Origin: Clostridia bacterium
GTDB lineage: Bacteria > Bacillota > Clostridia > TANB77 > CAG-508
Direction of reading: 5' to 3'
Assembly (NCBI GenBank): GCA_017430135.1
Contig: JAFRNM010000020.1
Location: 1 to 32,000 of the forward strand
DNA length: 32,000 bases
How positions within the stretch are numbered: the first letter of the stretch is position 1; each line of letters starts with the position of its first letter. Both the position numbers and the translations under genes were made by a program. The notes under the pieces were generated by a model, which saw nothing but the letters and a program-made list of their open reading frames with translations, had not been told where the DNA came from and did not search any database. Shown here piece after piece: positions 12,774-26,109 of this stretch.

Positions 12774-12887
12774 TTTATTTTGCTAATCATAAAAGGAACT
12801 TGTGCTAATATATATTTTTTTATAAAAAATGCTACAAAAATAGAAAATTGTGATATAATGTTTGGCGTATAGAAAGGATAGGGAAAA

Positions 12888-13163
12888 ATGACAAAAGAAT
12901 TTGTATGTGAATATATTTCAGACAAAATAATAAAAGAGGGAAATTTTATTAGAATTACATTTTTTGATATTAGAGTAAGACATAATTTATCAGCAGACGA
13001 AGTAGAAGAATTTTTAAAAGAAGCAAAGGAGATATTGGAGGATAAAGATTATCAAGTATATTTTACAACAGCCAAATATACATATAAACATGAACAAAGA
13101 ATAGTGCAAGATAACGAATACTTAATTGCTATAAAAGATGATGAAAATAATAAAAGGCAGTAA
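12888..13163 (+). CDS. hypothetical small acidic protein
   Basis: 91-aa ORF with a weak SD (AAAGGATAGGGAAAA). No motif recognised. Confidence 0.4.
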   Translation: MTKEFVCEYISDKIIKEGNFIRITFFDIRVRHNLSADEVEEFLKEAKEILEDKDYQVYFTTAKYTYKHEQRIVQDNEYLIAIKDDENNKRQ

Positions 13164-13341
13164 TTTCACTGCTTTTTATTATTTTCTGAAAAAGTTAAAC
13201 TTGTTAAATAGGATTCATATAATTAAAAAATACTAAAAATTTCATCAAATATACAAATTGAGAGAAATAAAAAATTAATAAAATCGTTGAAATTAGGAGA
13301 TTTTTAAGATTTTAACTTTTAAAAATCACTTCATTATGCTA

Positions 13342-13370
13342 TTGCAATTTTGGTTGATGTATGCTATATT
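13342..13370 (+). promoter_or_regulatory. promoter of the interrupted pseudopilin-like gene
   Basis: TTGCAA (13342-13347), 17-nt spacer, TGcTATATT extended -10 (13362-13370). Confidence 0.5.
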
Positions 13371-13428
13371 TTGAGTAATGATAATTTATTCAATTATTTA
13401 TTTGACGAAAAAAACGGAGGATAAAGTT

Positions 13429-13551
13429 ATGGAATTATTAAAAAATAATAAAGGTATTACTCTTATTATACTTGTGGTTACTATTATTGTGTATTGGGTT
13501 TCTTATGACAAGAATAGAAAATATAGTAATTTAGTGGGTTTCAGCCTATGA
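13429..13551 (+). pseudogene. 5' fragment of pseudopilin-like (class III signal-like N-terminus) gene, interrupted after codon 21
   Basis: SD GGAGG precedes ATG 13429. MELLKNNKGITLIILVVTIIV is followed by element-derived codons and a TGA at 13549-13551. The matching continuation is at 25030. Confidence 0.8.
13466..13513. other. attL (B arm - GT core 13489-13490 - P' arm)
   Basis: The P' arm GTTTCTTATGACAAGA (13498-13513) is the 15/16 reverse complement of 25005-25020. The core GT lies 7 nt from the arm. Confidence 0.65.
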
Positions 13552-13675
13552 TTTATATAGATTTATAATGGAATTGTTATTAAAAAGGATAATAATTCTA
13601 TTTTTTTGTTAAAAATGAAAATTTAGTTAGATAGTTTTGACTAATTTCAAATTTCAAATTTTACAAACATTATTA

Positions 13676-13704
13676 TTGATAAATCAATTTTAAAATGATA
13701 TACT
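13676..13704 (+). promoter_or_regulatory. promoter of the DUF1016 nuclease gene
   Basis: TTGATA (13676-13681), 17-nt spacer, TGaTATACT extended -10 (13696-13704). Confidence 0.5.
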
Positions 13705-13731
13705 AGATAAAAATTGAAAGAAGGATTGCTT

Positions 13732-14787
13732 ATGGATAAAAATGAAATAATAGAAAATAATAATCAAGAAGAATTTAAAAAAATATTTAATAATATAAAA
13801 GATGAAATATTAAATGCACAATATGATATATTTAAAGGTGCTAATGCTAGAACTTTAAGCTTGTATTATACAATTGGAAAAATAATAAATGAAAATGCAA
13901 AATGGGGAAATAAATTTGTGAAAAACTTATCAATTAGCTTAAAAATTGATTTTCCCAATATGACTGGTTTTTCAATTACAAATTTAAAATATATGAGAAC
14001 ATATTATTTGGAATGTCAAAAAGATAACAAATTGAAAGAATTATCAGCAAAAATTCCATGGTCACATAATACAATAATTTTAAGCAAAATTAAAGATGAA
14101 GTACAAAGACAATGGTATATTGAACAAACAGAATTGAATGGTTGGGCGTATGATGTTCTAGCATTTCAAATAAAAAGTGATTTATATACAAGGCAAGTTT
14201 TTGGAGATAAGCCTAATAATTTTAAAAGAACTTTAAAGTCTCCACAAAGTGAATTAGCAAGAGATATGATGAAAGATCCGTATATATTAGATTTATCTTA
14301 TTTAAGAGAAAACTATATTGAAAAAGAATTAGAAAATGCAATGGTTGAAAGAATAAAAAATGTTCTTTTAGAATTAGGAAATGGTTTCAGCTTTGTAGGA
14401 AATCAATATAGAATTGAAGTTGATGGAGACGAATACTTCATCGATATGCTTTTCTACCATACAAAATTACATTGTTATATAGTTGTAGAATTAAAAAATA
14501 CACAATATAAACCAGAATATGCTGGAAAATTAAACTTTTATTTATCAGCAGTAGATGATTTGATAAAAACAGAAAATGATAATCCAAGTATTGGAATAAT
14601 ATTATGTAGAGAAAAGAAAAAGTTTTCAGTAGAGTATTCTTTAAAGGATATAAACAAACCTATTGGTGTAAGTTCTTATGAAATATCAAATATATTACCA
14701 AAAGAGATTATGGATGCATTGCCAACAGAGGAGGATTTAAATTTGCATATAGATATAATTGAAGATGAAAATGAAGAGGATAATTAA
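13732..14787 (+). CDS. DUF1016/YhcG-family PDDEXK nuclease-domain protein
   Basis: ATG 13732 lies 6 nt after AAGGA (the track start at 13714 is a TTG). The C-terminal core EYFIDMLFYHTKLHCYIVVELKNTQYKPEYAGKLNFYLSAVDD matches the D...ExK restriction-endonuclease-like fold of DUF1016. Confidence 0.8.
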   Translation: MDKNEIIENNNQEEFKKIFNNIKDEILNAQYDIFKGANARTLSLYYTIGKIINENAKWGNKFVKNLSISLKIDFPNMTGFSITNLKYMRTYYLECQKDNKLKELSAKIPWSHNTIILSKIKDEVQRQWYIEQTELNGWAYDVLAFQIKSDLYTRQVFGDKPNNFKRTLKSPQSELARDMMKDPYILDLSYLRENYIEKELENAMVERIKNVLLELGNGFSFVGNQYRIEVDGDEYFIDMLFYHTKLHCYIVVELKNTQYKPEYAGKLNFYLSAVDDLIKTENDNPSIGIILCREKKKFSVEYSLKDINKPIGVSSYEISNILPKEIMDALPTEEDLNLHIDIIEDENEEDN

Positions 14788-14829
14788 AAAATGAAATTGG
14801 TCAGACGCGTCTGACCAATTTCATTTTTT
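14786..14829. terminator. bidirectional terminator (22-bp perfect palindrome)
   Basis: AAAAAATGAAATTGGTCAGACG / CGTCTGACCAATTTCATTTTTT. Confidence 0.8.
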
Positions 14830-14850
14830 GGTTTTGCAATAAGGCTCATA

Positions 14851-15108
14851 TTATATATTATTAAAATATTCATCTGTTAAGTCATTTACAGATATACCAA
14901 AGATTTTAGCAAAGGCACATAATTCATAGTCAACAATAGTTCTTTTACCAATTTCAATATTGTAAATTGATTGTTTATGAATATCTATGCCCAATAACAT
15001 TAGTTTGTCAGATAGTTTTTGATAAGAAAGGTTATTCTTTTCACGATAATATTTGATTTTACTACCTACAACATTTAAACTACCATTTATTTTTCTTGAA
15101 TTATTCAT
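14851..15108 (-). CDS. XRE-family helix-turn-helix transcriptional regulator
   Basis: 85 aa. IKYYREKNNLSYQKLSDKLMLLGIDIHKQSIYNIEIGKR is an HTH_3 pattern. Divergent from a small ORF. Confidence 0.8.
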   Translation of the reverse strand: MNNSRKINGSLNVVGSKIKYYREKNNLSYQKLSDKLMLLGIDIHKQSIYNIEIGKRTIVDYELCAFAKIFGISVNDLTDEYFNNI

Positions 15109-15197
15109 ATAAACTCCTTAAAATTTCATATTTGTATTGATTTTATAATAAATATTTGCTACAATATAAATACACGCATTTATAAAGGAGAAAATTG

Positions 15198-15437
15198 ATG
15201 AGATTTATTAAATGTAAGAAACACAATTTAGAAATGAAAGAAATATATAAATTAGTAAATAAACTTATAAAAGATAAAAAGCTAAAATTTGAATTTTATA
15301 ATAGTATTCAAGAAATTGACTTATTACAATGTTATTATAATAAAAAAGCAGATACTATTGAATTTAGGTTTAGAGATGTTATGGGGGAAAACATAAAGGA
15401 ATTACAACTTATTATGCATCAAATGGGAAAAGATTAA
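15198..15437 (+). CDS. hypothetical small protein (divergent partner of the XRE regulator)
   Basis: AAGGAG precedes ATG 15198 by 6 nt. 79 aa, followed by a hairpin and T-tract at about 15453-15490. Confidence 0.45.
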   Translation: MRFIKCKKHNLEMKEIYKLVNKLIKDKKLKFEFYNSIQEIDLLQCYYNKKADTIEFRFRDVMGENIKELQLIMHQMGKD

Positions 15438-15605
15438 ACATATAATTTTGAAAAACGCGTTGAATTTAGAAATAAATTCGGCGCTTTTTTTGCTGGGAAT
15501 TTTTTGTCTACATCTATTTAGGTATAAGTTATACCATTTAAGAACTAAAAACGGAAATAAAGGCATTGTGGTGCGAAAGAAAATTGTGGGAAAGGAGTTT
15601 TTGAA

Positions 15606-16037
15606 ATGGCAGATTTGAAATTAAAAGGATTATGGATTCCATTTGGAGTAATGACAGATAAAAATTTGAGTGATAAAGAAAAGTATATATATTCGCTTGT
15701 AGTATTTTTGAGCCAAGAGAAACAATATTGCTATTGTACCAATAAAACTATAAGCGAGTTATTTAATATATCAGTAACTCAAGTATCGAAGCTAATAAAT
15801 GCATTAAAAGATAAAGGTTATATAAATATAGAAATGCAGTATAAAGAAAATACTAAACAAGTTGAAATTAGAAAAATAGTACCTATTGAAGAAAAATTAA
15901 ATACCCTATTTAACAAAAGTTTAATACCCTATACAACAAAACTTCAACACCCTATTGAAGAAAAGTTTAAGGATAATAAATATAATATAAATAATTATAA
16001 AAATAATAATAAAAGGGTTAGCAATTTTGAACAATGA
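15606..16037 (+). CDS. winged-helix (HTH_36 / DnaD-N-like) replication-type protein, apparently truncated by an in-frame TGA
   Basis: KEKYIYSLVVFLSQ...TISELFNISVTQVSKLINALKDKGYI is a wHTH. The ORF ends ...SNFEQ-TGA. The next 21 in-frame codons (DYEKEGYDFESLYANNKFTT) continue the tail motif seen in the DnaD-domain protein at 5569-6534. Confidence 0.6.
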   Translation: MADLKLKGLWIPFGVMTDKNLSDKEKYIYSLVVFLSQEKQYCYCTNKTISELFNISVTQVSKLINALKDKGYINIEMQYKENTKQVEIRKIVPIEEKLNTLFNKSLIPYTTKLQHPIEEKFKDNKYNINNYKNNNKRVSNFEQ

Positions 16038-16116
16038 GATTATGAAAAAGAGGGGTATGATTTTGAAAGCCTTTATGCCAATAATAAATTTACAACATAG
16101 AATTTGCCATATAAAC

Positions 16117-16157
16117 AAAATGAAAGTGTAGATTTTACAAATCTATGCTTTCATTTT
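16117..16157 (+). terminator. hairpin terminator after the wHTH gene
   Basis: 17-bp stem: AAAATGAAAGTGTAGAT / ATCTATGCTTTCATTTT, with 2 G-U pairs and a 7-nt loop. Confidence 0.6.
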
Positions 16158-16159
16158 GT

Positions 16160-16440
16160 ATGCGTGGAAGTTTGAAACCGAGCTAGGTTTCAAGAAAGAG
16201 TAAGAAAATAAATTTTTTTCTTGCTCTTTTTTGCCTGAATTTGCGAATAGCAAGTTTGGGCAATTCAAAAAAGTTCACTTAGTGAACTTTTTTGAAAAAA
16301 CCTAAAAAAGCGAGTAGCGATTTTTAGGTTTTGGGGTGTGGGGTTTGTCAAACCCTGCCACAACTAACACTTTTTAGCGACAAGCGTAAAAAAAGTGTTG
16401 TAGTTGTGTTACATTACTTTTAAAAAAGTAACTATAGAGC
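16160..16440 (+). other. candidate oriT / relaxase recognition region (cluster of 6-7 hairpins)
   Basis: IRs at 16172-16193, 16197-16227, 16267-16293, 16297-16332, 16341-16355, 16359-16408 and 16408-16432. Contains GGGGTGTGGGG at 16333-16343. Lies immediately upstream of the MobV relaxase gene. Confidence 0.5.
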
Positions 16441-16523
16441 TATGCCAAAGAAGATGAAAGCTAGTTCTAAAAGAAGAAATTTTTAAAGTGCTATTTGCAC
16501 AGATTAAGGAGGTAAATTTAAAA

Positions 16524-17777
16524 ATGAGTTATGTAATAATTAGAAATGCAAAATACAAAAGAGAAAATTTAAAAGGAATTTTTAGACACAATGAACGAAA
16601 GAATGTACATTATTCAAACGAAAATATTGATAAGGAAAAATCATATTTAAATTATTCGCTAAAAGCACCAAAATATAGTTATGAAAAAGAGTTTGACAAA
16701 ATTAAGGAAAAGTACAACTTAAAAGGTCAAATAAAAACAGTTAGTAATATAGCTTGTGAATATATAATTACATCTGACCATGATTTCTTTGAAAAAATAG
16801 GCAAAGAAGAAACAAAAAGATTTTTTGAAACTGCATATAAATTTGTAGCTGAATATAAAGATTTAGGAGAACAATATATAATGTCTAGCACTGTGCATAT
16901 GGATGAGCAAACGCCCCATATGCATTTGGTGTTTTTGCCAGTAGTCCATACAACAGATAAAAATGGAAATGCTATTGATAAACTTGCTTGTAGTGAATTT
17001 TGGAAAGCAAAAGATAGTTACAGGCAATTACAAGATACTTTTTTCAAATATATGGTAGAAAACGGGTTTGATTTGCAACGAGGTGTGCCAATAGAAGAAA
17101 CAAATAGAAAGCATTATTCTGTTGAAGAATATAAGCAAATAACAAATTTTAAGCAAACAAAGAAAACACTAGAAAATATAAAATTAGAATTACCAGATGT
17201 ACCAGAAATTGCAGATATAAATGTTGCAAGGTGGTCTAAAAAGAGAGATGAGAAGATTTTAGAAGAAATAATAAAACCCAAAGATGATTTGATACAAAAT
17301 TTATACCAAAACAATTTGGATTTGCATAGAGAATTAACAAGACAAGCACAGGTTATTGAAGAAGCTGAAAAATACCAAAAAGAAAGAGAAAAAATACTTG
17401 CAGACAACGAAGAATTGCACAATTCTGTAAAAATTATAGAGAAAGAATATAAGAAAAAAAGTAATACTCTTGATTTGCAATTTAGTAATAGAAAAAAAGA
17501 CTTGGAAAATGAATTTAAGGAAAAAGAAAGTCAACTCAAAAGTAATTGGATGGATATAATTGATGATTATAAAAAGGAAAACAAGCATTTGAAAAGGCTT
17601 GTAGAAACTTTCAAAAAGACTATTAAAATTTTTATAAAATGGATTTGCAAGAAATTTGATATTGCTGAAGATTATGCTTTAGTTCGTGATTTTGAAAAAG
17701 AAACTAGAATTTCACTAGATGCTGAAAAGCAAGTACAAAATGAAGATAGAGAAAAAGAGTGGGATTTGGAAATGTAA
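16524..17777 (+). CDS. mob: MobV-family (Mob/Pre) relaxase
   Basis: AAGGAGG precedes ATG 16524. MSYVIIRNAKYK..., FRHNERK (HxxR) and STVHMDEQTPHMHLVFLPV (HxDE...PHxH) are present. Coiled-coil C-terminal half. Confidence 0.9.
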   Translation: MSYVIIRNAKYKRENLKGIFRHNERKNVHYSNENIDKEKSYLNYSLKAPKYSYEKEFDKIKEKYNLKGQIKTVSNIACEYIITSDHDFFEKIGKEETKRFFETAYKFVAEYKDLGEQYIMSSTVHMDEQTPHMHLVFLPVVHTTDKNGNAIDKLACSEFWKAKDSYRQLQDTFFKYMVENGFDLQRGVPIEETNRKHYSVEEYKQITNFKQTKKTLENIKLELPDVPEIADINVARWSKKRDEKILEEIIKPKDDLIQNLYQNNLDLHRELTRQAQVIEEAEKYQKEREKILADNEELHNSVKIIEKEYKKKSNTLDLQFSNRKKDLENEFKEKESQLKSNWMDIIDDYKKENKHLKRLVETFKKTIKIFIKWICKKFDIAEDYALVRDFEKETRISLDAEKQVQNEDREKEWDLEM

Positions 17778-17805
17778 AAAGTCGATAGAGAAATTTATCG
17801 ACTTT
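17778..17805. terminator. bidirectional terminator
   Basis: AAAGTCGATA / TATCGACTTT with an 8-nt loop, between convergent mob and the XRE gene. Confidence 0.6.
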
Positions 17806-17808
17806 GGA

Positions 17809-18060
17809 TTATTTTTCATTTGAAGGAGTATATTCTAAAATGTCGGAAATATTACAATTAAGTACATAACAAAATCTTGAAATAATATCTAAATCTACAC
17901 GAGAAATGCTATTATTGTAATATCTATTTATTAAATCAAAGTTAGCACCTACAAGTGAGCATAGTTTATTTCTACTAATTCCTTTTTCTAGTAATATTTC
18001 TTTTAATTTTATTTTGGTTACTCCATAATTTTTTAATATGTAAATACTATTATCTTCCAT
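17809..18060 (-). CDS. XRE-family helix-turn-helix transcriptional regulator
   Basis: 83 aa. LKEILLEKGISRNKLCSLVGANFDLINRYYNN...VLNCNISDILEY is the typical Cro/CI-type HTH. Divergent from the four-gene operon. Confidence 0.8.
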   Translation of the reverse strand: MEDNSIYILKNYGVTKIKLKEILLEKGISRNKLCSLVGANFDLINRYYNNSISRVDLDIISRFCYVLNCNISDILEYTPSNEK

Positions 18061-18183
18061 AATTGCTAATCTCCAAACATTTAATAATAATTTATAGAAA
18101 TATTATATAATGATATTTAATTATTAACACTACCATACTTTTAATGCATTACTAGCAATAGTATCTTAAATAATATAAAAAAC

Positions 18184-18212
18184 TTGCAAAATATTGTTAA
18201 ATATGGTAAAAT
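18184..18212 (+). promoter_or_regulatory. promoter of the four-gene cargo operon
   Basis: TTGCAA (18184-18189), 17-nt spacer, TGgTAAAAT extended -10 (18204-18212). AT-rich palindromic arms TTAATAAT/ATTATTAA lie in the divergent region. Confidence 0.5.
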
Positions 18213-18257
18213 TAAAGTAGTTGAATGACAACAGAAAAATTTAGGAGGTAAAATTAT

Positions 18258-19208
18258 ATGATAAAGAAAATGGGAGAATTATTTATTTATTATGTACTAT
18301 CTACTGAAAAAGAAGGCACAAAGGATTTTTGTTTAAGAGGATGTGTTAATGCAACACAAAAAGCTCTAAATATAATAAAAAATGAAAATTTGCAGGCATG
18401 GAATGAACATTTAAAAAATGTATTTGCATTTTATAAAAATGGAACTCATCCAGGGTTGAATATACAAAATGAATTAATGAAATTATCACAAGAAGAATAT
18501 ATTCAAGATATTGAAAAAATACAGGATTTATTTAGAAAATATAGTAAAATGGGAACTAGTAATTATGATTCATTATATTTAGTTACTTCTGAAAAAGATG
18601 TGTCAAGATTGTCTTATTCTATTATTTTAAGAAATAAGTCTTTAAAAGAAATAAGAAACTTATTAGATGAAGAATTGGAAAAAACAAATAAAGACCAAGA
18701 AATATTGGCTATTCTTACAAACGAATTATGCTGGAAATATCGTTATGGAAGCAAAGAAGATATAAATTTTGATGAGGCTATAAAAGGTTGGAAAATGATA
18801 GCAGATTATTTGACAGATGCGAAATATGAGTTAGCTTGGTGCTATTTTGAGGGAAAAGGTATAAAAGAAGATAAGGAAAAGGCATATAATATATTCTGTG
18901 AAATAATGTCAAAAGATATAAGGGCTAAATTTGAAGTTGCTCGACTAAATCTTTTCGGAGATGGAACTCTAAAAGATGAGAACAAAGCATTTAATATATT
19001 TACTGAAATGAAAGAAAAAGTACCATATGATATGGAAAAATTGATATGCAAATATTTGGGAAGAATGTATTTATATGGCTTAGGAATTAAACAAGATAAA
19101 AAGAAAGGCTTAGAATTATTAGAGAAAGCCTGGAATAGCGGATTTGTAGATTATAAATATGATGAAATAAAAAAAGCGTTAAAAGAGTATTATGGAATTA
19201 ACGATTAA
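18258..19208 (+). CDS. Sel1-like repeat (SLR) protein with unknown ~180-aa N-terminal domain
   Basis: The C-terminal half has SLR units (AKYELAWCYFEGKGIKEDKEKAYNIF; ARLNLFGDGTLKDENKAFNIF; LGRMYLYGLGIKQDKKKGLELLEKA). GGAGG lies 9 nt upstream of the ATG. Confidence 0.65.
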   Translation: MIKKMGELFIYYVLSTEKEGTKDFCLRGCVNATQKALNIIKNENLQAWNEHLKNVFAFYKNGTHPGLNIQNELMKLSQEEYIQDIEKIQDLFRKYSKMGTSNYDSLYLVTSEKDVSRLSYSIILRNKSLKEIRNLLDEELEKTNKDQEILAILTNELCWKYRYGSKEDINFDEAIKGWKMIADYLTDAKYELAWCYFEGKGIKEDKEKAYNIFCEIMSKDIRAKFEVARLNLFGDGTLKDENKAFNIFTEMKEKVPYDMEKLICKYLGRMYLYGLGIKQDKKKGLELLEKAWNSGFVDYKYDEIKKALKEYYGIND

Positions 19209-19230
19209 TTTATTAAAGAGGTGATATAAT

Positions 19231-19854
19231 ATGCCATTAAGATTTTTTGAAAGAAAATTAGAAAATCCAGAAAGTAATATCGAAAATGAAGGTAACTTAT
19301 ATGAAACAACTAATCCAAGAGAAGTTGATGAACCATATGAAGATGAATTTGATAAAAGAATGGGAGCGAGTGATTTAGATTCAAAAAGTTATAGTAAGTT
19401 TGAACAAACGACTAAACCACTTTCTAAAAGGGAAGCTTTTTTGCAATCTATTAGAGTAGAACAAAAAACAGAAGTATCTCCGTTAGTGTTGGCATATAGA
19501 GAACTAGATAGAGCAAGACAAAGTGGAAATAGAGAAGCTATTATACAAGCGGAAGATACAATATTGGATTTAGAACGACAAGAAGAACAAAGGGAATACA
19601 ATACAAGAATTGCAGAGTTAAGGCAAATGAAGGCTACAGCCAAATCAATGGGAGATAAAACAGAATTAGCTAGATTTGTAAAATTAAGAGATGCATTTGT
19701 AGTAGAGATGAAATATGATGAATTAAATTATCAAATCAAAAAATTACAAAATGCTCAAAGGCTATCACCTAGTAGAGATAATTTGCAAAAAATTGCTGAA
19801 TTAAGACAAGAAATGGAAAGTTTAGAAATGCCAGAAAATACAAAAGGAAGATAA
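19231..19854 (+). CDS. hypothetical charged (E/R/Q-rich) coiled-coil protein
   Basis: 207 aa. SD is AGAGGTGA. Composition is visibly different from the N/K/I-rich neighbours. No motif recognised. Confidence 0.5.
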   Translation: MPLRFFERKLENPESNIENEGNLYETTNPREVDEPYEDEFDKRMGASDLDSKSYSKFEQTTKPLSKREAFLQSIRVEQKTEVSPLVLAYRELDRARQSGNREAIIQAEDTILDLERQEEQREYNTRIAELRQMKATAKSMGDKTELARFVKLRDAFVVEMKYDELNYQIKKLQNAQRLSPSRDNLQKIAELRQEMESLEMPENTKGR

Positions 19855-19929
19855 TATAAATAGTTCAATAGGAATATGGTGATTATATGTTTCATTATAT
19901 TCCTATTTATTGATACGGAGGAAAAAATA

Positions 19930-20757
19930 ATGAGTTATATGGATGCCCAAAAATATCTTAATGAAAATAGATTTGAAAATGCATATAATATTTTAGTTAA
20001 AATAGCAAATAACAAATATGATTTCAAACAAAATGAAGCTAATTATAGTTTAGGTGAAATGTATTTACAAGGATTATATGTAAAAAAAGATCTTGATAGA
20101 GCTGTCGAATGTTTTAAAAGAGCTGATATTATAGAAAATCAATATTTGGCATTACTATATTATTATGGAATATTTGGAATACAAAAAAATTATGAAGAAG
20201 CTTGGAAATACAGTCATTCCACTAATAAAGATATTCACGATCCAAAAGAAATTATGGCAAAAAATATTTTATCAAAATATATTGAAAATTTAATTTTATA
20301 TAACAACTATTGGAATAATCAATTTAAAAAATATAGATTTGTTAGTAAAGCTAATATCGAAGATGAAAAGATTAGATTTGAAATTATAAATGATAATTTA
20401 AAAATATTTTTTAATGAATATAATAGTATATCAATTTTAAAAGACGAAAAATATGGGCAGATTTTTTCATATATATTAAATAATATTAAGGATATTGATT
20501 TTTACTTTGTTTTAGGAATATTGTTATTTAGAGATAAAAGATATAATGAGGCTATCAATTATATACAAAAATGTGTTGAAAATAATCATTCTTTTTCAAA
20601 AATAATTTTGTCATATTTATATAACGAAGGGCTTAGCGTTGAAAAAAATAGTTACAAAGCTAATGAAATATTAAATAGTATGAATACTGATAGATTAAGT
20701 GATATATTAGCTATAAATTACAAAAATGATATTTGTAAATGGATTGAAACAAACTAA
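19930..20757 (+). CDS. Sel1-like repeat / TPR-like protein
   Basis: GGAGG (19917-19921) precedes ATG 19930. The track start at 19876 lies inside a hairpin. Contains ANYSLGEMYLQGLYVKKDLDRAVECFKRA and ILSYLYNEGLSVEKNSYKANEIL SLR units. Confidence 0.55.
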   Translation: MSYMDAQKYLNENRFENAYNILVKIANNKYDFKQNEANYSLGEMYLQGLYVKKDLDRAVECFKRADIIENQYLALLYYYGIFGIQKNYEEAWKYSHSTNKDIHDPKEIMAKNILSKYIENLILYNNYWNNQFKKYRFVSKANIEDEKIRFEIINDNLKIFFNEYNSISILKDEKYGQIFSYILNNIKDIDFYFVLGILLFRDKRYNEAINYIQKCVENNHSFSKIILSYLYNEGLSVEKNSYKANEILNSMNTDRLSDILAINYKNDICKWIETN

Positions 20758-20784
20758 GAGATATATTTATATGGGGGTGATTAA

Positions 20785-21264
20785 ATGATTATACAAACTA
20801 ATAGATACAAAAAACTTTTAAAAAGGAACATTATTAGTATAATTGTAAGTTTCTTCATATTAATAGGATTAATTTTTTTAAACGAATTTATAAAAAATAA
20901 TAATATATATGGTAATGATTATAGACAAGTAAAAGCGGAGGTTGTGAAAATAATTGAAAGTCCTGTAGAACAATTAGTAGGCACAAAACATCATAAAACA
21001 ATGAAATTTGTTAAACTTTATAATATAAAAATAAAATATAATGTAAATGATACTGAATATCAAACTGAAATAAGCGGAATAAAAAATAAAAATATAGATA
21101 AAGAATTAAATGTATATTATAGTATTAATAATCCCAATGAAATAAAAGCAAACCTAAAAATAAATGAAAATATTGAAATATTTATTACGATTTCGGTATT
21201 AGTATGTATTGCATTTATTTTAAGGATAATTGATAAGTTAGTACATAAAGAATTATATTTATAA
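20785..21264 (+). CDS. DUF3592-like two-TM membrane protein
   Basis: N-terminal TM (IISIIVSFFILIGLIFL), a beta-rich middle (VKAEVVKI...YNIKIKYNVNDTEYQTE...LNVYYSINNPNEIKANL) and a C-terminal TM. This topology and pattern are typical of DUF3592. Confidence 0.5.
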   Translation: MIIQTNRYKKLLKRNIISIIVSFFILIGLIFLNEFIKNNNIYGNDYRQVKAEVVKIIESPVEQLVGTKHHKTMKFVKLYNIKIKYNVNDTEYQTEISGIKNKNIDKELNVYYSINNPNEIKANLKINENIEIFITISVLVCIAFILRIIDKLVHKELYL

Positions 21265-21266
21265 AT

Positions 21267-21290
21267 AAAATGCCTATAAAAAGGCATTTT
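21267..21290. terminator. bidirectional terminator
   Basis: AAAATGCCT / AGGCATTTT with a 6-nt loop, between convergent genes. Confidence 0.65.
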
Positions 21291-22383
21291 ATTTTGTTTC
21301 TTCAAGCCACTTGTAAACCTCGCTTTCAGTAAGTTCTCCATGTTTTAATTTTGTAATTTTATCTTTTGCTATTTTTTTCCAGTTTTCAAAGTCTTTTTTT
21401 AATTTTTTATCATTTTTATTTTTATTAACGATTCCAAATTTTTGTTGATAAAGTTTTCTGTATTCTCCATAAGCAGATTTTTCTTTTAGTCTGTTTTGGT
21501 ATGAAAGCATTGCTCCTTGTTCTCTGCAAGTTTTCTTATTTCCTTTTGGGTAATCGCAGTAAACTTCATCTAGTCTTGAATTTGGTATAAAGTACATACC
21601 ACAATTCTGACATTTTTTTATTGGATTATTTGTTGTTTTTGAAAGTTCTTCTAATATTGCATAACAAATGCTAGATAGGTCATAGCTTTGGTGTGTATCT
21701 TGCATTGAAATTAGCATACTTTTATTTTTTAGGCTCTCTAAAAGATTTTGTTCACTCATTCCAGTTAGTTCACCATTTTTATTTGAATAACTATCTCTAA
21801 TTATATGGTCATTTTTAGCATAAGTGTATAGGCTACCTTTATGTGTTATTAAATATACTGCATATCTTTCACTTGCAGAATATGGCTTTAAATCTTCTTT
21901 TTCATCTAAATTGTATATGTAAGTTACTGCATTTATTAATTCTTGTTGTATTTCTATTAGTTGTTCTTGCAAATTATTGAAAACTGCTTTTGTTTCTTTC
22001 AAATAATTTTCATCACTTCCATAGTTATTGCTTAAATCAAATTTATAGTTTTCATCTAGGTCTTTTAAAATTTCAAAACCATAAGCATAGAAAAAGTCTT
22101 TGTATGCTGTTTCATACGAAGAAAGGTTTGCATTTAAAAATCTTAACAATAATAAGCCAAATTTTTCTACATAAGGAAAATAAATAGATGCTGGGTGTTT
22201 TAATCCATTATCTGTTTTTTCTTTTTCACTCCAATATACAGTTCTTATTCTATTATCTAAATCCATATTAAAACTAGCCTTATAAAAATACAAAGGTGTA
22301 GAATAATATTCTTCTCTTTTCTCTTTATTAAACCAAATATAAAAATTTTCAAAAGAAGTTGTTTCTGGTAAATTAGTATTCAT
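21289..22383 (-). CDS. DUF6076-like protein with C-terminal Cys cluster
   Basis: 364 aa. IKKCQNCGMYFIPNSRLDEVYCDYPKGNKKTCREQGA is the Cys-rich motif I associate with DUF6076 proteins of clostridial mobile elements. Assignment is from memory, not a search. Confidence 0.5.
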   Translation of the reverse strand: MNTNLPETTSFENFYIWFNKEKREEYYSTPLYFYKASFNMDLDNRIRTVYWSEKEKTDNGLKHPASIYFPYVEKFGLLLLRFLNANLSSYETAYKDFFYAYGFEILKDLDENYKFDLSNNYGSDENYLKETKAVFNNLQEQLIEIQQELINAVTYIYNLDEKEDLKPYSASERYAVYLITHKGSLYTYAKNDHIIRDSYSNKNGELTGMSEQNLLESLKNKSMLISMQDTHQSYDLSSICYAILEELSKTTNNPIKKCQNCGMYFIPNSRLDEVYCDYPKGNKKTCREQGAMLSYQNRLKEKSAYGEYRKLYQQKFGIVNKNKNDKKLKKDFENWKKIAKDKITKLKHGELTESEVYKWLEETK

Positions 22384-22451
22384 ATCAATACTTTCCTCCG
22401 TTTCTAGTATATTGTATCACGAAACAATAACAAAAAATAATAAAATTGTTA

Positions 22452-22480
22452 TTGACATTCTATAATTATTATACTATAAT
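22452..22480 (+). promoter_or_regulatory. promoter of the small HTH gene
   Basis: TTGACA (22452-22457), 17-nt spacer, TATAAT (22475-22480). Confidence 0.55.
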
Positions 22481-22568
22481 ATCTCTAACAATACAATACT
22501 TTTTAGAATAATAATTGTTTTAAATTGTAGACTAAAATTTCACTACAATATTTTAAGAAAGAAATGGG

Positions 22569-23021
22569 GTGATAAAAATAAACAAAACAGATGAGATAAT
22601 CAAACTTTTTTATGAAGAACACAAAAGACCAACAGATATTGCTGAACAAGTAGGTGTTGCAAATTCTTATGTAACAAAAGTAATCCAAAAAGATAAGAGA
22701 TATATTGAAGAAAAGCAACATCGAAAAGAAGAAAACAAAGAAACTCATAAGGTAAGCAAAAGAAGATATATTCAAAAAAGAAGAGAAAAAGAAAAACAAG
22801 AATATCTTGCAATGGTAGTTCAAATAAATAGAGATAACAATTATTTGTCAACTAAAAAGCAAGTGTCAGATATAGCTTTTGCAAAGTGGAACAGAGGAAT
22901 GTTTGAATATGATAAACATAGTTCCGATTTAGTGTTAAGAAATGGTATAACAACAGGTTATAATGTACCAAAAAGAGTTGGTAATGTGGTAAGTGCCGAT
23001 ATGATAAGGGCATATAATTAA
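22569..23021 (+). CDS. small helix-turn-helix protein (sigma-70 region-4/Psq-like HTH), basic middle region
   Basis: GTG start. EIIKLFYEEHKRPTDIAEQVGVANSYVTKVIQ is an HTH. 150 aa. Confidence 0.5.
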   Translation: MIKINKTDEIIKLFYEEHKRPTDIAEQVGVANSYVTKVIQKDKRYIEEKQHRKEENKETHKVSKRRYIQKRREKEKQEYLAMVVQINRDNNYLSTKKQVSDIAFAKWNRGMFEYDKHSSDLVLRNGITTGYNVPKRVGNVVSADMIRAYN

Positions 23022-23191
23022 ATAACATAAACAAATTAGCCAAAGGATATTAAGGCTATTTTTTTATTTCAAATAAGAGTTTTTAGGCTTTATATAGCTT
23101 GAAAGCTCTTATTTTTAGGAAGGGGAAAAAGATGATAAGGTTTTATAAAAATTTCAAAAAGTATGTGGATTTATAGAAAGGAGTAACGCCT

Positions 23192-23326
23192 ATGGGTAAA
23201 AGAAAAACAGAAGAAATAACTATAATAAACAAATTTAATGAAAAATCTTCTGTTGATGTTAAAAAATCAATAGAAAATGCTTTCAAATTGTTTTATAGCT
23301 TAAATGTAAGTAAAAACAAAATATAA
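23192..23326 (+). CDS. possible 44-aa micro-ORF upstream of the recombinase
   Basis: AAAGGAG precedes ATG 23192 by 7 nt (MGKRKTEEITIINKF...). Too short for the ORF track. No homology evidence. Confidence 0.3.
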   Translation: MGKRKTEEITIINKFNEKSSVDVKKSIENAFKLFYSLNVSKNKI

Positions 23327-23340
23327 ATTAAAAAATTAAG

Positions 23341-23446
23341 AGTTTCGCCTATAATTCAGTGTTTTATAAATTTTTATATTAGTTTAAATCGGTTGACTTT
23401 TTATAAATTGAGCGGTAAAATAAGCACATAAATTATAGGCGAAACT
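23341..23446. repeat. perfect 16-bp inverted repeat bracketing the recombinase promoter
   Basis: AGTTTCGCCTATAATT (23341-23356) and AATTATAGGCGAAACT (23431-23446), 74 nt apart. Confidence 0.85.
23393..23421 (+). promoter_or_regulatory. promoter of the serine recombinase gene
   Basis: TTGACT (23393-23398), 17-nt spacer, TAAAAT (23416-23421). Lies inside the IR-bounded segment. Confidence 0.5.
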
Positions 23447-23467
23447 TACTAAAAGTGAGGAGGTAAA

Positions 23468-25015
23468 ATGTTAGTAAGTAACGCAAGAAATTATAATTGT
23501 GCTTTATATTGTAGGTTATCTAGTGAAGATGAGTTGCAAGATGAAAGCAGAAGTATAACAAATCAAAAAGAATTATTAGAAAGATATGCAAAAGAAAACA
23601 ATCTAAATATTTATGATGTTTATGTAGATGATGGTTATAGTGGAACGAACTTTGAAAGACCAGATTTTCAAAGAATGATAAGAGATATTGAAAATAAAAA
23701 AGTAAATATGGTAATAGTAAAAGATAGTTCAAGACTTGGTAGGGATTATATTCAATTTGGAGAATATATTGAAAAATATTTCCCACAAAATAATGTAAGA
23801 GTAATATCAATATTAGATAACTACGATTCTGAACTTGACAATGGTGTAGCAGATACATTGCCATTTAGAGCTGTAATGAACGATTACTATGCAAAAGACA
23901 CATCAAAAAAAGTAAGAAGCACAAAGCAAAAAAATGCAAAACAAGGCTTGTTCATGGGAAGATATGCACCATTTGGCTATGATAAGTCAGCAGAAGATAA
24001 ACATAAACTTGTTATAAATGAAGAACAAGCAAAAGTAGTAAGAAAAATCTTCAAACTATATTTAGAAGATAATTCTCCACTACAAATATCATATATATTG
24101 ATAAATGAGAAAATTCCAACACCATCACAAATAATGAATATGCAAAAACAGACTACAAAATGGTATCCAGAAGTAATAAGAAGAATATTACAAAATGAAA
24201 TGTATATAGGAAATATGGTGCAATGTAGACAAAGGAAAATCAATTATAAATTGAAAAAAGTAGTAGGTTTGCCAAAGTCTGAATGGATTATTGTAGAAAA
24301 TACCCACGAGCCAATAATAGAAAAAGAAACATTTTATGCAGTTCAGCAAATAATGAAAAGCAAAGAAAAAACAAGAGCAAAATCTGTAAAACTATTATTG
24401 AAAGGTTTGGCAGTATGCAAAGAATGTGGTAAGAAAATGAGTACAACGGTTGATTGTCATGGAAATCATAACAGATATTTGAGATGTACCAGTTATGCAA
24501 CAGCACCACGACAAAGAATTTGCACACCACATATAATGAACTATCAAAACTTGGAAAATGCCATAATAAAGGAACTACAAGAACTTTGTAAACAATATTT
24601 AGATAAAAATGAATTAAAGCAAATAGTAGATAAGGAAAATCAAGAAATAGACAACGAAAACAAGGTTAAAAAAGAAAAAAGTGTTACACAAAAGGCAATA
24701 GATGTATTATCTAATCAAATTGATAAGCTATACGAAGATAAGTTAAAGGGCTTATTAAATGAATTAGATTTTAAAAGGCTTTATGATAAAAAATTGGCTG
24801 AAAGAGAATTGAAACAAAAGTATTTGAAAGAATTAGAAAGTGTTACTTTTGAAAAAAAAACTATTGATTATGAAAAAATTATGTCAGATTTCTTAAAGAA
24901 AGAAAATATAACAAGCTATATGCTTACAAGTTTAATTGATAAAATTGAAATTGATAATGATAAAAATGTAACGGTTTATTATAAATTTAGTCCATTAAGT
25001 AATGTCTTGTCATAA
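23468..25015 (+). CDS. large serine recombinase (integrase/excisionase of the element)
   Basis: 515 aa. Resolvase catalytic domain (ALYCRLSSEDE, VKDSSRLGRD), recombinase domain, Zn-ribbon CKECGKKM...C...C and a coiled-coil C-terminus. SD is GAGGAGG. Confidence 0.95.
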   Translation: MLVSNARNYNCALYCRLSSEDELQDESRSITNQKELLERYAKENNLNIYDVYVDDGYSGTNFERPDFQRMIRDIENKKVNMVIVKDSSRLGRDYIQFGEYIEKYFPQNNVRVISILDNYDSELDNGVADTLPFRAVMNDYYAKDTSKKVRSTKQKNAKQGLFMGRYAPFGYDKSAEDKHKLVINEEQAKVVRKIFKLYLEDNSPLQISYILINEKIPTPSQIMNMQKQTTKWYPEVIRRILQNEMYIGNMVQCRQRKINYKLKKVVGLPKSEWIIVENTHEPIIEKETFYAVQQIMKSKEKTRAKSVKLLLKGLAVCKECGKKMSTTVDCHGNHNRYLRCTSYATAPRQRICTPHIMNYQNLENAIIKELQELCKQYLDKNELKQIVDKENQEIDNENKVKKEKSVTQKAIDVLSNQIDKLYEDKLKGLLNELDFKRLYDKKLAERELKQKYLKELESVTFEKKTIDYEKIMSDFLKKENITSYMLTSLIDKIEIDNDKNVTVYYKFSPLSNVLS

Positions 25016-25052
25016 AAAACTATAAGCGTTTTGCTAATTTTAGCTGGTATAA
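25005..25052. other. attR (P arm - GT core 25028-25029 - B' arm)
   Basis: The P arm TCTTGTCATAAAAAAC (25005-25020) overlaps the recombinase stop codon. The core GT lies 7 nt from the arm. Confidence 0.65.
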
Positions 25053-26059
25053 GCATTTCTGCTATTACAGGAGGAGATAGTTCTATGGACAAGGCTAAGA
25101 AAGCTAAAGATGAAACTGCAATAAAAGCAGAAATGGAAGAATTACAAAAAATAATAAATCAATCTGCTGCTAAAGGTATAAGGCATGGAAATTTCTCGGG
25201 TTCAGCAGATTCACAAACTATTAGAGATGCTTTAAAGAAGAACAAACTTATTGAAGAAAATCCAGATGATGTAATTATTGATGGTCAGAGTCAATTTGAT
25301 GTTACTGGTGCAAAAACAGGGCAAAAATATGCAATAACAAGCAGTGGAGAAGTTATCAGAATTTGCAAAGAAAGAATTGGTGATGCAGTTGGTTATTCTA
25401 CATCTATGAATGAAGTTACACTAGATAACTGGAAAGTTTTTTATAAAGAAATAAAAAATGGCACGGAATATGTTTATTTTATATATGGAGATTATTTTCC
25501 GTATAATGCAGTTTCTTCTATAAGCGAATTGTCAAAAGGAAATAGTGATTATATGATCAAAAGTACAAATAGAGCCAATTTATTGAATGCACTAACAACA
25601 AAATCAAATTGGAAAGATTTATTAAAGGGGGCAATAAATGGCAATTCGATAGATTATAGTAATGTTACAAATGATAATATATATGCTATAGGAAGTCCAA
25701 CAATAGAATTGTGGGTAAATAGTTGGAATAAAAGTTATCCAAGTGATAAAATCTTTATAAGATATGAAGAAAATGTAAAAAATAATAATTATGATGGTTG
25801 GTATGTATCCTTAAATAATCCTGCAAATGCTGGAGCGGCATATTTATCTCAAAAAATAGGTTATTCTAATAAATTATATTATCCATATACAAACAAATTA
25901 GATAGTTGTGAGGGATACTGGTTATCCTCGCCTTCTGTATATAATAATGGGCAAACAGTACAGACACGCTATACAGGAGTTTTGGGATATTACTATGGAG
26001 CTGATGGACCATGTTCAATAAGACCAGTTATATGCTTACCTTCAAGCGTATTAGAATAA
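25030..26059 (+). pseudogene. 3' part of the interrupted pseudopilin-like gene (C-terminal domain ...GYWLSSPS...SIRPVICL)
   Basis: Begins mid-helix (LLILAGISISAITGG) with no SD or ATG. In frame with 13429-13490 once the element is removed. Confidence 0.8.
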
Positions 26060-26065
26060 AAATAA

Positions 26066-26090
26066 AAATGCTTACTTTTAGTAAGCATTT
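26066..26090. terminator. terminator (near-duplicate of 12053-12082)
   Basis: AAATGCTTAC / GTAAGCATTT with loop TTTTA. Lies between the convergent pseudopilin-like gene and pdp. Confidence 0.7.
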
Positions 26091-26109
26091 ATTCTTTTAA
26101 ATTTTTTAA

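What the first reader, a model, noticed from the sequence alone, without database searches (positions are those of the whole stretch)
13429..26059. An 11.5-kb serine-recombinase element splits a pseudopilin-like gene; excision at a GT core would rebuild the ORF in frame
Seen in sequence:
- A 40-codon ORF (13429-13551) has its own SD and a TTGCAA-17-TGcTATATT promoter. It reads MELLKNNKGITLIILVVTIIV and then runs into unrelated codons.
- The ORF at 25031 starts mid-helix (LLILAGISISAITGG) with no SD or ATG.
- The large serine recombinase gene stops at 25015, 14 nt from the right junction.
- Joining the two element ends gives a 48-bp attP-like site: TCTTGTCATAAAAAAC (25005-25020), 7 nt, GT, 7 nt, GTTTCTTATGACAAGA (13498-13513). 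This is a 15/16 inverted repeat centred exactly on a GT present at both junctions (13489-13490 and 25028-25029).
- Joining 13490 to 25030 reads GTT ACT ATT ATT GTT TTG CTA ATT, in frame. It gives a 363-codon gene with a KGITLI..VTIIVLLILAGISI N-terminus.
- The rebuilt attB shows TATAC-N17-GT-N17-GTATA symmetry.

Inference: this is a reversible, gene-disrupting mobilizable element with skin-element / active-lysogeny logic. Its target is the conserved hydrophobic N-terminal coding segment of a class-III-signal-like protein family. That would give it many potential attB sites across paralogues and hosts.
Basis: partly seen in the sequence, partly recalled or inferred. Interest (0 to 1): 0.75.

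Follow-up and report, generated by a model that had tools for sequence, protein, structure and literature searches.

The report
Mobilizable element splitting a surface-protein gene
An 11.5-kb mobilizable DNA element has inserted, through its own serine recombinase, at one exact codon of a surface-protein gene in an uncultured gut or rumen Clostridia bacterium; its relatives hit the same codon in at least ten different genes, so this is a well-supported new member of a known class of mobile elements.

Summary
Window 13491-25029 is an 11,539-bp integrative mobilizable element (IME). It carries a large serine recombinase (LSR, 23468-25015), a MobV relaxase, a Rep-like protein, DUF6076 and variable cargo. 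It sits inside codon 21 (Val, GTN) of a gene for a signal-anchored surface protein with a pilin-like N-terminus.

A related strain (L003/L004) has the same locus empty and the gene intact. Its flank homology (98.7% and 97.8%) ends exactly at the predicted GT. Related elements (92-96% nucleotide identity, or LSRs 68-72% identical) sit at the same V|LLILAG codon in nine further, different genes. Element homology ends exactly at 25029. The attP arms (15/16 inverted repeat, 7 nt either side of GT) occur by chance at about 1e-6 and are conserved between elements.

Three points are not supported:
- The attB TATAC/GTATA symmetry is not conserved.
- Pilin membership fails: no Glu+5, and N_methyl scores below threshold.
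- There is no evidence for a skin-like or active-lysogeny switch. No circular junction was found, and all 13 contigs carrying this gene variant are occupied.

The closest known relatives are the Tn4451/Tn4453 (TnpX) IMEs, which use a GA core and have low target specificity. Verdict: new member of a known kind, moderate interest.

The parts
13342..13370 (+). Promoter-like site of the target gene (TTGCAA-17-TATATT with upstream TG)
   Evidence: Identical in the empty-site strain L003 upstream of the intact gene. As a consensus match alone it is not significant.
13429..13490 (+). 5' part of the split target gene: codons 1-20 plus GT of Val21 (MELLKNNKGITLIILVVTIIV)
   Evidence: Flank homology to the empty site L003 (98.7%) ends at 13490.
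13489..13490 (+). GT crossover dinucleotide in attL
   Evidence: Only GT is shared between attL and attR. It lies at the centre of the attP dyad.
13491..25029 (+). Integrative mobilizable element, 11,539 bp
   Evidence: Absent from the orthologous locus L003/L004. Homology to related elements L084/L088/L089 ends exactly at 25029.
13498..13513 (+). attP right (P') arm, GTTTCTTATGACAAGA
   Evidence: 15/16 complementary to 25005-25020. Conserved in L001, L005 and L006. Chance about 1e-6.
13714..14787 (+). Cargo: YhcG/DUF1016 PD-(D/E)XK nuclease, candidate defence gene
   Evidence: PF06250 3.4e-62 and PF17761. PADLOC PDC-S02 1.6e-128. Absent from L001, L005 and L006.
14851..15108 (-). HTH_3 (Cro/CI-type) regulator
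   Evidence: PF01381 5e-07. PHROG transcriptional repressor.
15606..16037 (+). Rep-like / DnaD_N HTH_36 protein (conserved backbone)
   Evidence: PF13730 and PF21984. PHROG replication initiation protein 1.2e-13. 56-60% identical in L001, L005 and L006.
15882..15970 (+). 23-bp tandem repeats (about four units, iteron-like) inside the 3' end of the Rep-like gene
   Evidence: families D1 and D5.
16100..16440 (+). Hairpin-rich non-coding region upstream of the relaxase gene: candidate oriT
   Evidence: At least five inverted repeats of 12-21 nt. 16098-16360 is 95% identical to L001, while the flanking genes are 78-84% identical. The function is inferred.
16488..17777 (+). MobV (Mob_Pre) relaxase
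   Evidence: PF01076 3.3e-47. NCBIfam NF041497 MobV 127.4 bits, cut-off 100. 64-71% identical in related elements.
17809..18060 (-). HTH_26 regulator
   Evidence: PF13443 1.4e-15.
18258..21264 (+). Cargo cluster of four genes (Sel1-repeat, unknown, Sel1/TPR, unknown)
   Evidence: Present in the W-like elements L084 and L088. In L001, L005 and L006 this position holds a pilin-like family gene instead.
21289..22383 (-). DUF6076 protein (conserved backbone, function unknown)
   Evidence: PF19553 1.6e-11. 64-97% identical in all four complete elements.
22569..23021 (+). Conserved 150-aa protein of unknown function; candidate regulator or directionality factor (inferred)
   Evidence: 52-91% identical in L001, L005 and L006. 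Called as a gene in L084-L089. No significant family hit.
23192..23326 (+). Conserved 44-aa ORF just upstream of the recombinase gene
   Evidence: A 44-aa gene is called at the same position in L001, L002 and L084-L089.
23468..25015 (+). Large serine recombinase (515 aa)
   Evidence: PF00239, PF07508 and PF13408. Catalytic domain 58/111 identical to TnpX (PDB 2MHC), with the YxRLS serine motif aligned. About 36% identical to TndX.
25005..25020 (+). attP left (P) arm, TCTTGTCATAAAAAAC; overlaps the last codons and stop of the recombinase gene
25028..25029 (+). GT crossover dinucleotide in attR
25030..26059 (+). 3' part of the split target gene (third base of Val21, then LLILAGISI... to the stop)
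   Evidence: Colinear with 26 homologues. Annotated in databases only as a 324-aa product starting at an internal Met (P0001).

Best explanation

Integration. Its large serine recombinase paired an attP site on the circular element with an attB site in the chromosome. attP has two TCTTGTCATAA(A/G)AAAC arms in inverted orientation, each 7 nt from a central GT. attB is the DNA encoding ..VTIIV|LLILAG.. in the N-terminal membrane helix of a surface-protein gene. The recombinase cut both sites at the GT (the first two bases of the Val21 codon), exchanged the strands and religated. This split the gene into a 40-codon stub that keeps the promoter, and a 342-codon promoter-less remainder.

Target range. 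GT is not palindromic, so orientation is fixed: the recombinase gene always reads out towards the 3' half of the target. The recognised sequence is conserved because it encodes a conserved helix, so many family members in many hosts can serve as attB.

Excision and transfer (inferred). The reverse attL x attR reaction would release a circle and restore the gene in frame. It might need a directionality factor; candidates are the 150-aa and 44-aa ORFs, or DUF6076. The MobV relaxase would nick the hairpin-rich region at 16100-16440, and the element would transfer through the mating pore of a co-resident conjugative element.

Shown: the insertion, its exact boundaries, the GT core, the target specificity and the gene content. 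Inferred: present-day excision, the directionality factor, oriT and mobilization.
For: - Empty site. L003 and L004 share the window's flanks (7434-13490 at 98.7%; 26103-31906 at 97.8%) and the same gene order. They carry one intact 450-aa gene whose first 105 residues equal the joined product. The DNA reads ...AATTGT|TTTGCT....
- Colinearity. 26 homologues align across the junction with the consensus KGITLIALVITIIVLLILAG.
- Ten distinct attR junctions are known: the window, L001/L002/L087, L084-86/L088-89, L005, L006, L007, L013, L090, L091 and L092. All read arm-N7-GT and then an in-frame (V)LLILAG.
- Four complete elements of 11,539, 9,707, 10,105 and 10,391 bp have the same attL structure.
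- Homology to the W-like elements ends exactly at 25029.
- The attP dyad occurs by chance at about 1e-6.
- Gene content. The LSR has all three domains, and its catalytic domain is 52% identical to TnpX. MobV scores above the NCBIfam cut-off. No T4SS or phage structural genes lie inside the element.
- Conserved backbone: Rep-like, MobV, DUF6076, orf150 and LSR.
- The review PMC5704250 states that serine-recombinase IMEs integrate within, and disrupt, dispensable genes and are flanked by very short repeats. It also states that Tn4451 recombines at 2-bp identities.
Against: - No circular (attP) junction was found in the JGI metagenome scan (three hits, all attR) or in IMG/VR (no hits).
- The exact 363-aa restored protein is not in the 15-billion-protein collection.
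- All 13 contigs carrying this gene variant have the recombinase upstream. Excision in this lineage is therefore undocumented.
- No directionality factor or nick site could be identified by homology.
- No conjugative element that could serve as helper was shown. Only a T4SS-like trio at 7070-9900 is present, partly below family thresholds.
Confidence: 0.88

Rival explanations
1. A domesticated, regulated gene switch, as in the skin element or active lysogeny. The element stays in the chromosome and excises under particular conditions to turn the surface-protein gene back on.
For: Excision would restore the ORF exactly in frame. Both halves of the target are still open and undecayed. All sampled genomes with this gene variant are occupied.
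Against: The element keeps a full mobilization module (MobV, candidate oriT, Rep-like). It is absent from a strain with 98% identical flanks. Copies 92-96% identical sit in other genes and other genomes. One target (L001) is only a 55-codon remnant that could not yield a functional product. The cargo varies between copies. These are properties of an active mobile element, not a fixed switch.
Confidence: 0.06
2. A fossil insertion. The element integrated once by this mechanism but can no longer excise or move in this lineage.
For: No attP junction and no restored gene were found. The element is always present with this gene variant. The window's element lacks TnpV, which the L005 and L006 relatives carry.
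Against: All backbone ORFs are intact and 91-97% identical to those of L001 at the protein level. The attP arms are 15/16 intact. W-like elements occupy a different target in other samples (L084, L088), which indicates recent movement. According to PMC5704250, the related TnpX needs no accessory protein.
Confidence: 0.1
3. A prophage, phage satellite or assembly chimera rather than an IME.
For: Large serine recombinases are common in prophages. The Rep-like protein and the repressors hit PHROG families.
Against: There are no capsid, tail, terminase or lysis genes. There is no nucleotide match in 50,697 phage records and no hit in IMG/VR. A MobV relaxase is present. The same junctions recur in independent assemblies from ENA, NCBI and Logan.
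Confidence: 0.02

Closest known systems
Tn4451/Tn4453 family of clostridial integrative mobilizable elements (TnpX large serine recombinase, TnpZ Mob_Pre relaxase, TnpV)
   Same: Host class is Clostridia. The LSR catalytic domain is 52% identical to TnpX. The relaxase is of the Mob_Pre/MobV type. The relatives L005 and L006 carry TnpV just inside the left end. Recombination is at a 2-bp core (PMC5704250).
   Different: The core is GT, not GA (the GA core of TnpX is from my own knowledge). Target specificity is high, for one coding motif, whereas Tn4451 has low specificity. Full-length identity to the related TndX is only about 36%. The window's element has no TnpV. There is no antibiotic-resistance cargo. 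The recombinase gene lies at the right end and reads outward.
Site-specific serine-recombinase IMEs of streptococci that insert within dispensable genes such as rumA (Guedon et al. 2017; Coluzzi et al. 2017)
   Same: One LSR plus a relaxase, integration inside a coding sequence that it disrupts, very short flanking repeats, and related integrases hitting the same site in different species (PMC5704250).
   Different: Here the target is a motif shared by a multi-member family of modular surface proteins, not a single-copy housekeeping gene. Ten different genes are used.
Gene-interrupting serine-recombinase elements whose excision restores the gene (B. subtilis skin/SpoIVCA in sigK; Listeria phage A118-type insertion in comK; Anabaena XisF fdxN element)
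   Same: An LSR-bounded insertion inside an ORF, where precise excision rebuilds the reading frame. NCBIfam gives sub-threshold similarity to XisF (116.7 bits, cut-off 375).
   Different: Those elements are fixed in the species or are prophages, and their excision is developmentally or infection regulated (my own knowledge). This one is a strain-variable, mobilizable element with many targets, and no regulated excision is shown.
Type IV pilin / pseudopilin N-terminal domain (class III signal peptide, Pfam N_methyl PF07963)
   Same: A short basic leader ending in Gly, then about 20 hydrophobic residues predicted as a helix. In-register but sub-threshold N_methyl matches. The homologues P0061 and P0067 have the same C-terminal domain behind a true KGFTLIELL N_methyl signal.
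   Different: There is no Glu at +5, and Ile replaces Phe/Met at +1. The scores are below Pfam's cut-off. The C-terminal domain has no convincing structural match.

Membership tests
Large serine recombinase (serine integrase) | N-terminal resolvase catalytic domain with the nucleophilic serine | tested here: met
   PF00239 2.8e-26. ALYCRLSSED aligns with ALYERLSRDD of the TnpX catalytic domain 2MHC, E 4.9e-30.
Large serine recombinase (serine integrase) | C-terminal recombinase domain plus zinc-ribbon domain | tested here: met
   PF07508 6.8e-23 and PF13408 1.7e-10. Aligns over residues 10-467 with the SPbeta integrase structures.
Large serine recombinase (serine integrase) | attP of about 50 bp with imperfect inverted arms around a 2-bp crossover that is the only identity between attL and attR | tested here: met
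   Confirmed by the empty site.
Large serine recombinase (serine integrase) | Catalysis of attP x attB recombination | not testable with these tools
   Needs an in vitro or in vivo assay.
Integrative mobilizable element (IME) | Own integration/excision module and defined att boundaries | tested here: met
   LSR plus attL/attR. Presence/absence polymorphism at an orthologous locus.
Integrative mobilizable element (IME) | Own relaxase and/or oriT | tested here: met
   MobV NF041497 127.4 bits, above the cut-off of 100. oriT is only a candidate: the hairpin-rich conserved region at 16100-16440.
Integrative mobilizable element (IME) | No complete conjugation (T4SS) machinery of its own | tested here: met
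   No T4SS family hits among the element's proteins.
Integrative mobilizable element (IME) | Excision and mobilization in trans by a conjugative element | not testable with these tools
   No circular junction in the collections searched. Mating experiments are needed.
Tn4451/Tn4453 family | TnpX-type recombinase | tested here: inconclusive
   Best PDB hit is TnpX, with 52% identity over the 111-aa catalytic domain. Full-length identity to the related TndX is about 36%. It is related, but orthology was not established.
Tn4451/Tn4453 family | TnpV and TnpZ (Mob_Pre) accessory genes | tested here: inconclusive
   Mob_Pre is present. TnpV is absent from the window and from L001, and present in L005 and L006.
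Tn4451/Tn4453 family | Low target specificity | tested here: not met
   All ten junctions fall in the same codon of one protein family, whereas Tn4451 has low specificity (PMC5704250).
Type IV pilin / pseudopilin (N_methyl, class III signal peptide) | Pfam/TIGRFAM N-terminal methylation motif above the curated threshold | tested here: not met
   PF07963 scores 13.1 bits for the joined product and 20.1 bits for P0002, against a cut-off of 21.2. TIGR02532 is not reported for it, while P0061 passes at 21 bits against 16.3.
Type IV pilin / pseudopilin (N_methyl, class III signal peptide) | Gly-1, Phe/Met+1 and Glu+5 | tested here: not met
   The sequence is KG|ITLII. Position +5 is Ile, and it is Ala in the family consensus ITLIA.
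Type IV pilin / pseudopilin (N_methyl, class III signal peptide) | Processing by a prepilin peptidase and assembly into a fibre | not tested
   No prepilin peptidase was looked for outside the window; none is in the window.
skin-like / active-lysogeny regulatory excision elements | Regulated excision that restores a needed gene, with the element retained in the lineage | not testable with these tools
   Only indirect evidence is available, and it points the other way: strain-variable presence, multiple targets including a gene remnant, and an intact mobilization module.

The most novel reading that the evidence does not exclude
The element family may be a site-specific exchanger of surface proteins, not only a passive insertion. 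Three of the four complete elements (L005, L006, and L001 in frameshifted form) carry as cargo a member of the very family they target. The cargo gene includes an attB-like site that is 56/62 identical to the occupied attB and lies in inverted orientation. Integration would therefore knock out one chromosomal family member while delivering a different one. The internal attB-like site, together with the shared N-terminal module, could also let the recombinase or homologous recombination shuffle C-terminal domains onto a conserved promoter and anchor module. The C-terminal cassette swap seen at this very locus between strains would fit that.
Probability: 0.12. Interest if true: 0.65.

Novelty: new member of a known kind. 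Interest (0 to 1): 0.4.

Why it matters
- It defines a previously undescribed clade of clostridial serine-recombinase IMEs from uncultured gut and rumen bacteria, with exact attP, attL, attR and attB sequences and a natural panel of ten attB variants that differ mainly at wobble positions. That is ready-made material for studying how large serine recombinases read their sites, and for integrase tool development.
- It shows a mobile element using the conserved coding sequence of a signal-anchor helix as its landing pad. This gives it many possible sites within and between genomes.
- It explains a database artefact: the target is annotated only as a truncated 324-aa hypothetical protein (MBR0491987.1).
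- The target family (pilin-like N-terminus, swappable C-terminal domains) is uncharacterised and abundant: 1,848 proteins with E <= 0.001 among the candidates scored.

Tried and rejected
- Circular junction. A degenerate right-end pattern would catch both attR and attP. The JGI metagenome scan gave three hits, all new attR junctions. IMG/VR gave none.
- Exact look-up of the restored 363-aa protein: not in the collection.
- Function of the target. Pfam and NCBIfam gave nothing significant. The AlphaFold model is good (pLDDT 83.9), but Foldseek against PDB gave no match with E <= 0.001; the best was a T. ramosa IgA peptidase with a query-normalised TM-score of 0.26.
- attB dyad symmetry (TATAC/GTATA): present in the window, not conserved, at chance level overall. 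Rejected as a feature.
- Prophage reading: no match in phage genomes and no structural PHROGs. Rejected.
- Directionality factor: no homology-based candidate, and the window has no TnpV.
- Literature searches for the motif (LLILAG, ITLIALV), for DUF6076, and for LSR with paralogue targets found nothing specific.
- Rfam found only tRNAs.
- The genome-contig scan with the recombinase returned many LSRs of 35-65% identity whose downstream sequence is unrelated. These were set aside as having other target specificities.

Full report
THE WINDOW. It is 25.5% G+C. It is chromosomal DNA (gyrA, nrdI, DnaB_2- and DnaA/IstB-type ATPase-domain replication proteins, tRNAs, pyrimidine-nucleoside phosphorylase) of an uncultured Clostridia bacterium. 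The truncated target protein and the recombinase are identical to MBR0491987.1 and MBR0491986.1 of a 'Clostridia bacterium' MAG. Both occur together on 11 contigs of up to 534 kb.

CHECK OF THE OBSERVATION.
- The 40-codon ORF at 13429-13551 has GGAGG 8 nt upstream and a TTGCAA-17-TATATT promoter-like site with an upstream TG.
- The promoter-less ORF starts at 25031.
- The recombinase stop is at 25015.
- GT lies at 13489-90 and 25028-29.
- The two 16-nt arms are 15/16 complementary and lie 7 nt either side of the GT once the element ends are joined.
- Joining 13490 to 25030 gives an in-frame 363-aa product.

Random pairings of GT sites from the same window give such a dyad at a frequency of about 1e-6. 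The promoter match alone is not significant (8 found against 8.0 expected in shuffles). The TATAC-N17-GT-N17-GTATA symmetry of the rebuilt attB is there. It is missing from the other three reconstructed attB sites, whose overall dyad symmetry (6-12 of 30) is at chance level.

WHAT THE INSERT IS. The 11,539 bp between the two GTs encode the following.
- A YhcG/DUF1016 nuclease (PADLOC candidate defence family PDC-S02).
- Two Cro/CI-type regulators.
- A Rep-like HTH_36/DnaD_N protein with 23-bp tandem repeats in its 3' end.
- A hairpin-rich non-coding stretch.
- A MobV relaxase (above the NCBIfam cut-off).
- A four-gene Sel1/TPR cluster.
- A DUF6076 protein, and conserved 150-aa and 44-aa ORFs.
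- A 515-aa large serine recombinase with resolvase, recombinase and zinc-ribbon domains.

There are no T4SS genes and no phage structural genes inside, and no match to phage genomes or IMG/VR. This is the gene content of an integrative mobilizable element. The recombinase's best solved relative is the catalytic domain of TnpX of Tn4451 (58 of 111 residues identical, serine motif aligned). Full-length identity to TndX is about 36%.

THE DECISIVE TEST: AN EMPTY SITE. The uninterrupted protein P0008 has the same first 105 residues as the joined product. It lies on contigs L003 (260 kb) and L004, whose gene order matches the window gene for gene. Window 7434-13490 matches at 98.7% and 26103-31906 at 97.8%. 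The left homology stops exactly at 13490, and the right part resumes at the junction. The empty site reads ...GTAGTTACAATAATTGT|TTTGCTTATT.... Twenty-six homologues also align colinearly across the junction, with the consensus KGITLIALVITIIVLLILAG.

THE TARGET IS A MOTIF, NOT A LOCUS. Close relatives of the recombinase were recovered from protein clusters, GTDB genomes and JGI metagenomes. Ten different attR junctions were found: the window, L001/L002/L087, L084-86/L088-89, L005, L006, L007, L013, L090, L091 and L092. All read TCTTGTC(A/G)TAA(A/G)AAAC-N7-GT, followed in frame by (V)LLILAG(I/V)(S/T)I of a different family member. Their DNA differs mainly at wobble positions.

Four elements have both ends: 11,539, 9,707, 10,105 and 10,391 bp. 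In each, the left junction lies after ..(V/I)T-I-(I/V)- and the GT of the Val codon. Apart from one case with an ambiguous TGTA, only GT is shared between attL and attR. Homology between the window's element and W-like elements in another target (92-94% identity) ends exactly at 25029.

Recombinases of 60-65% identity have a different downstream sequence. In L009 the insertion lies inside another serine-recombinase gene. The specificity is therefore a property of the clade of 68% identity and above. A paralogue in the same MAG (P0044) reads TIIT|LLIVAG and so lacks the GT. Not every family member is a possible site.

THE TARGET PROTEIN. The joined product has a short basic leader, a predicted helix at 12-34, a second long helix at 39-72, and a confidently modelled beta-rich C-terminal domain (pLDDT 83.9). 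That domain has no convincing structural relative. The N-terminus resembles a class III (prepilin) signal, and it matches Pfam N_methyl in register but below threshold (13.1 bits; 20.1 for P0002; cut-off 21.2). Glu+5 is missing. Two homologues with the same C-terminal domain, P0061 and P0067, carry a genuine KGFTLIELL signal. 'Pilin-like' is thus a fair description of how the N-terminus looks, but family membership fails the test.

MECHANISM. Shown: integration by a 2-bp (GT) exchange at the centre of a dyad-symmetric attP into the helix-coding attB, in a fixed orientation, splitting the gene.

Inferred from established knowledge of large serine recombinases and of Tn4451 (PMC5704250):
- The same enzyme, alone or with a directionality factor, excises a circle and restores the gene.
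- MobV nicks an oriT. The candidate is 16100-16440, which is 95% conserved with L001 while the neighbouring genes are 78-84% identical.
- A helper conjugative element supplies the pore.

No circle junction and no restored gene of this variant were found, and all 13 contigs with this gene variant are occupied. Current excision is therefore unproven. The intact backbone, the intact arms and the 92-96% identical copies in other targets argue against a dead element.

COMPARISON WITH THE KNOWN. Serine-recombinase IMEs that insert within, and disrupt, dispensable genes and are flanked by very short repeats are an established class. Tn4451/Tn4453 is its studied clostridial prototype (PMC5704250). This element shares with Tn4451 the type of recombinase and the Mob_Pre relaxase, and its relatives L005 and L006 also share TnpV. 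It differs in its GT core, its high target specificity, its gene order and its cargo.

The skin/active-lysogeny analogy holds only in the formal sense that excision would rebuild an ORF. The defining regulated, retained-element behaviour cannot be tested here. The strain-variable, multi-target, mobilizable nature of the element speaks against it. One target (L001) is a 55-codon remnant that could not give a functional protein.

NOVELTY AND VERDICT. This is a new member (a new clade with a new target specificity) of a known kind. Interest is moderate. The case is unusually clean and gives a natural series of attB variants. The use of a conserved signal-anchor coding motif as landing pad is neat but not surprising in principle.

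Two loose ends raise the ceiling.
1. Three of the four complete elements carry a member of the targeted family as cargo, with an attB-like site inside the element.
2. The C-terminal domain of the gene at this locus differs between the occupied and the empty strain, and four synonymous differences cluster within 15 bp of the crossover.

Noticed in passing
L005:5741-7042 (-), L006:5157-6209 (-), L001:6140-7440 (-): Three of the four complete related elements carry a member of the targeted pilin-like family as cargo, between the relaxase and DUF6076 genes. The cargo gene includes an attB-like site, 56/62 identical to the occupied attB in L005, in inverted orientation. In L001 this gene is frameshifted just after VTIVVLLIMA. 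In a circular element, attP x this internal site would invert a segment and destroy attP. Why this is tolerated is unexplained. The window's element has the Sel1/TPR cluster at that position instead.
   Followed up: partly
window 25364-26102 versus L003:6397-7561: At the same chromosomal locus, the occupied and empty strains share the promoter and the first 105 codons but have unrelated C-terminal domains. The window has an unknown beta-rich domain; L003 has DUF285/PARCEL repeats. Homology resumes 43 nt after the stop. Many proteins share the N-terminal 130 residues at 88-92% identity with different C-termini. This suggests cassette-like exchange of C-terminal domains.
   Followed up: partly
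window 13476, 13482, 13485 and 25036: Four synonymous differences from the empty-site allele cluster at -14, -8, -5 and +7 around the GT core. The adjoining 225 bp on the left and 135 bp on the right are identical. Possible causes are import of the element with donor flanks by homologous recombination, paralogue gene conversion, or attB polymorphism.
   Followed up: no
L009:11518-11904 (-); also L008, L010-L012, L014, L024, L034, L047: A sister clade of recombinases (57-65% identical) has a different conserved downstream sequence. In L009 the insertion lies inside the catalytic-domain coding region of another serine-recombinase gene, so these elements appear to nest in other mobile elements.
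   Followed up: partly
window 7070-9900 (-): A T4SS-like trio lies 3.5-6 kb upstream of the target gene: a TrbL/VirB6-like membrane protein (sub-threshold), a T4SS-pilin-like protein (sub-threshold) and a TrwB/TraG-type coupling protein. It is conserved in the empty-site strain. It might be part of a resident conjugative system that could serve as helper.
   Followed up: no
window 15882-15970: About four tandem 23-bp repeats (CCTATTGAAGAAAAATTAAATAC-like) lie inside the 3' end of the Rep-like gene. They look like iterons and may mark a replication origin for the excised form.
   Followed up: no
window 14786-14829: A perfect 22+22-nt palindrome with no spacer lies between the convergent YhcG nuclease and HTH_3 genes. 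It is probably a bidirectional terminator (I20).
   Followed up: no
window 13714-14787; L001:2069-3518; L005:2080-3489: The first cargo genes inside the left end all read in the same direction as the host gene's promoter, and they are defence- or toxin-like: YhcG/PDC-S02 in the window, AbiEi/AbiEii in L001, and a Schlafen AlbA_2 protein in L005 and L006. The captured host promoter might drive them.
   Followed up: no
L088 and L089 contig ends: Two Logan contigs stop 28 nt past the GT core, inside the conserved helix-coding sequence. This is as expected if that sequence is repeated among paralogues and breaks assemblies.
   Followed up: no
P0061, P0067 (homologues, not in the window): The same C-terminal domain occurs behind a genuine prepilin N_methyl signal (KGFTLIELL) in some homologues. 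This suggests that the ITLIA-type N-terminus and true class III signals are functionally interchangeable anchors.
   Followed up: partly
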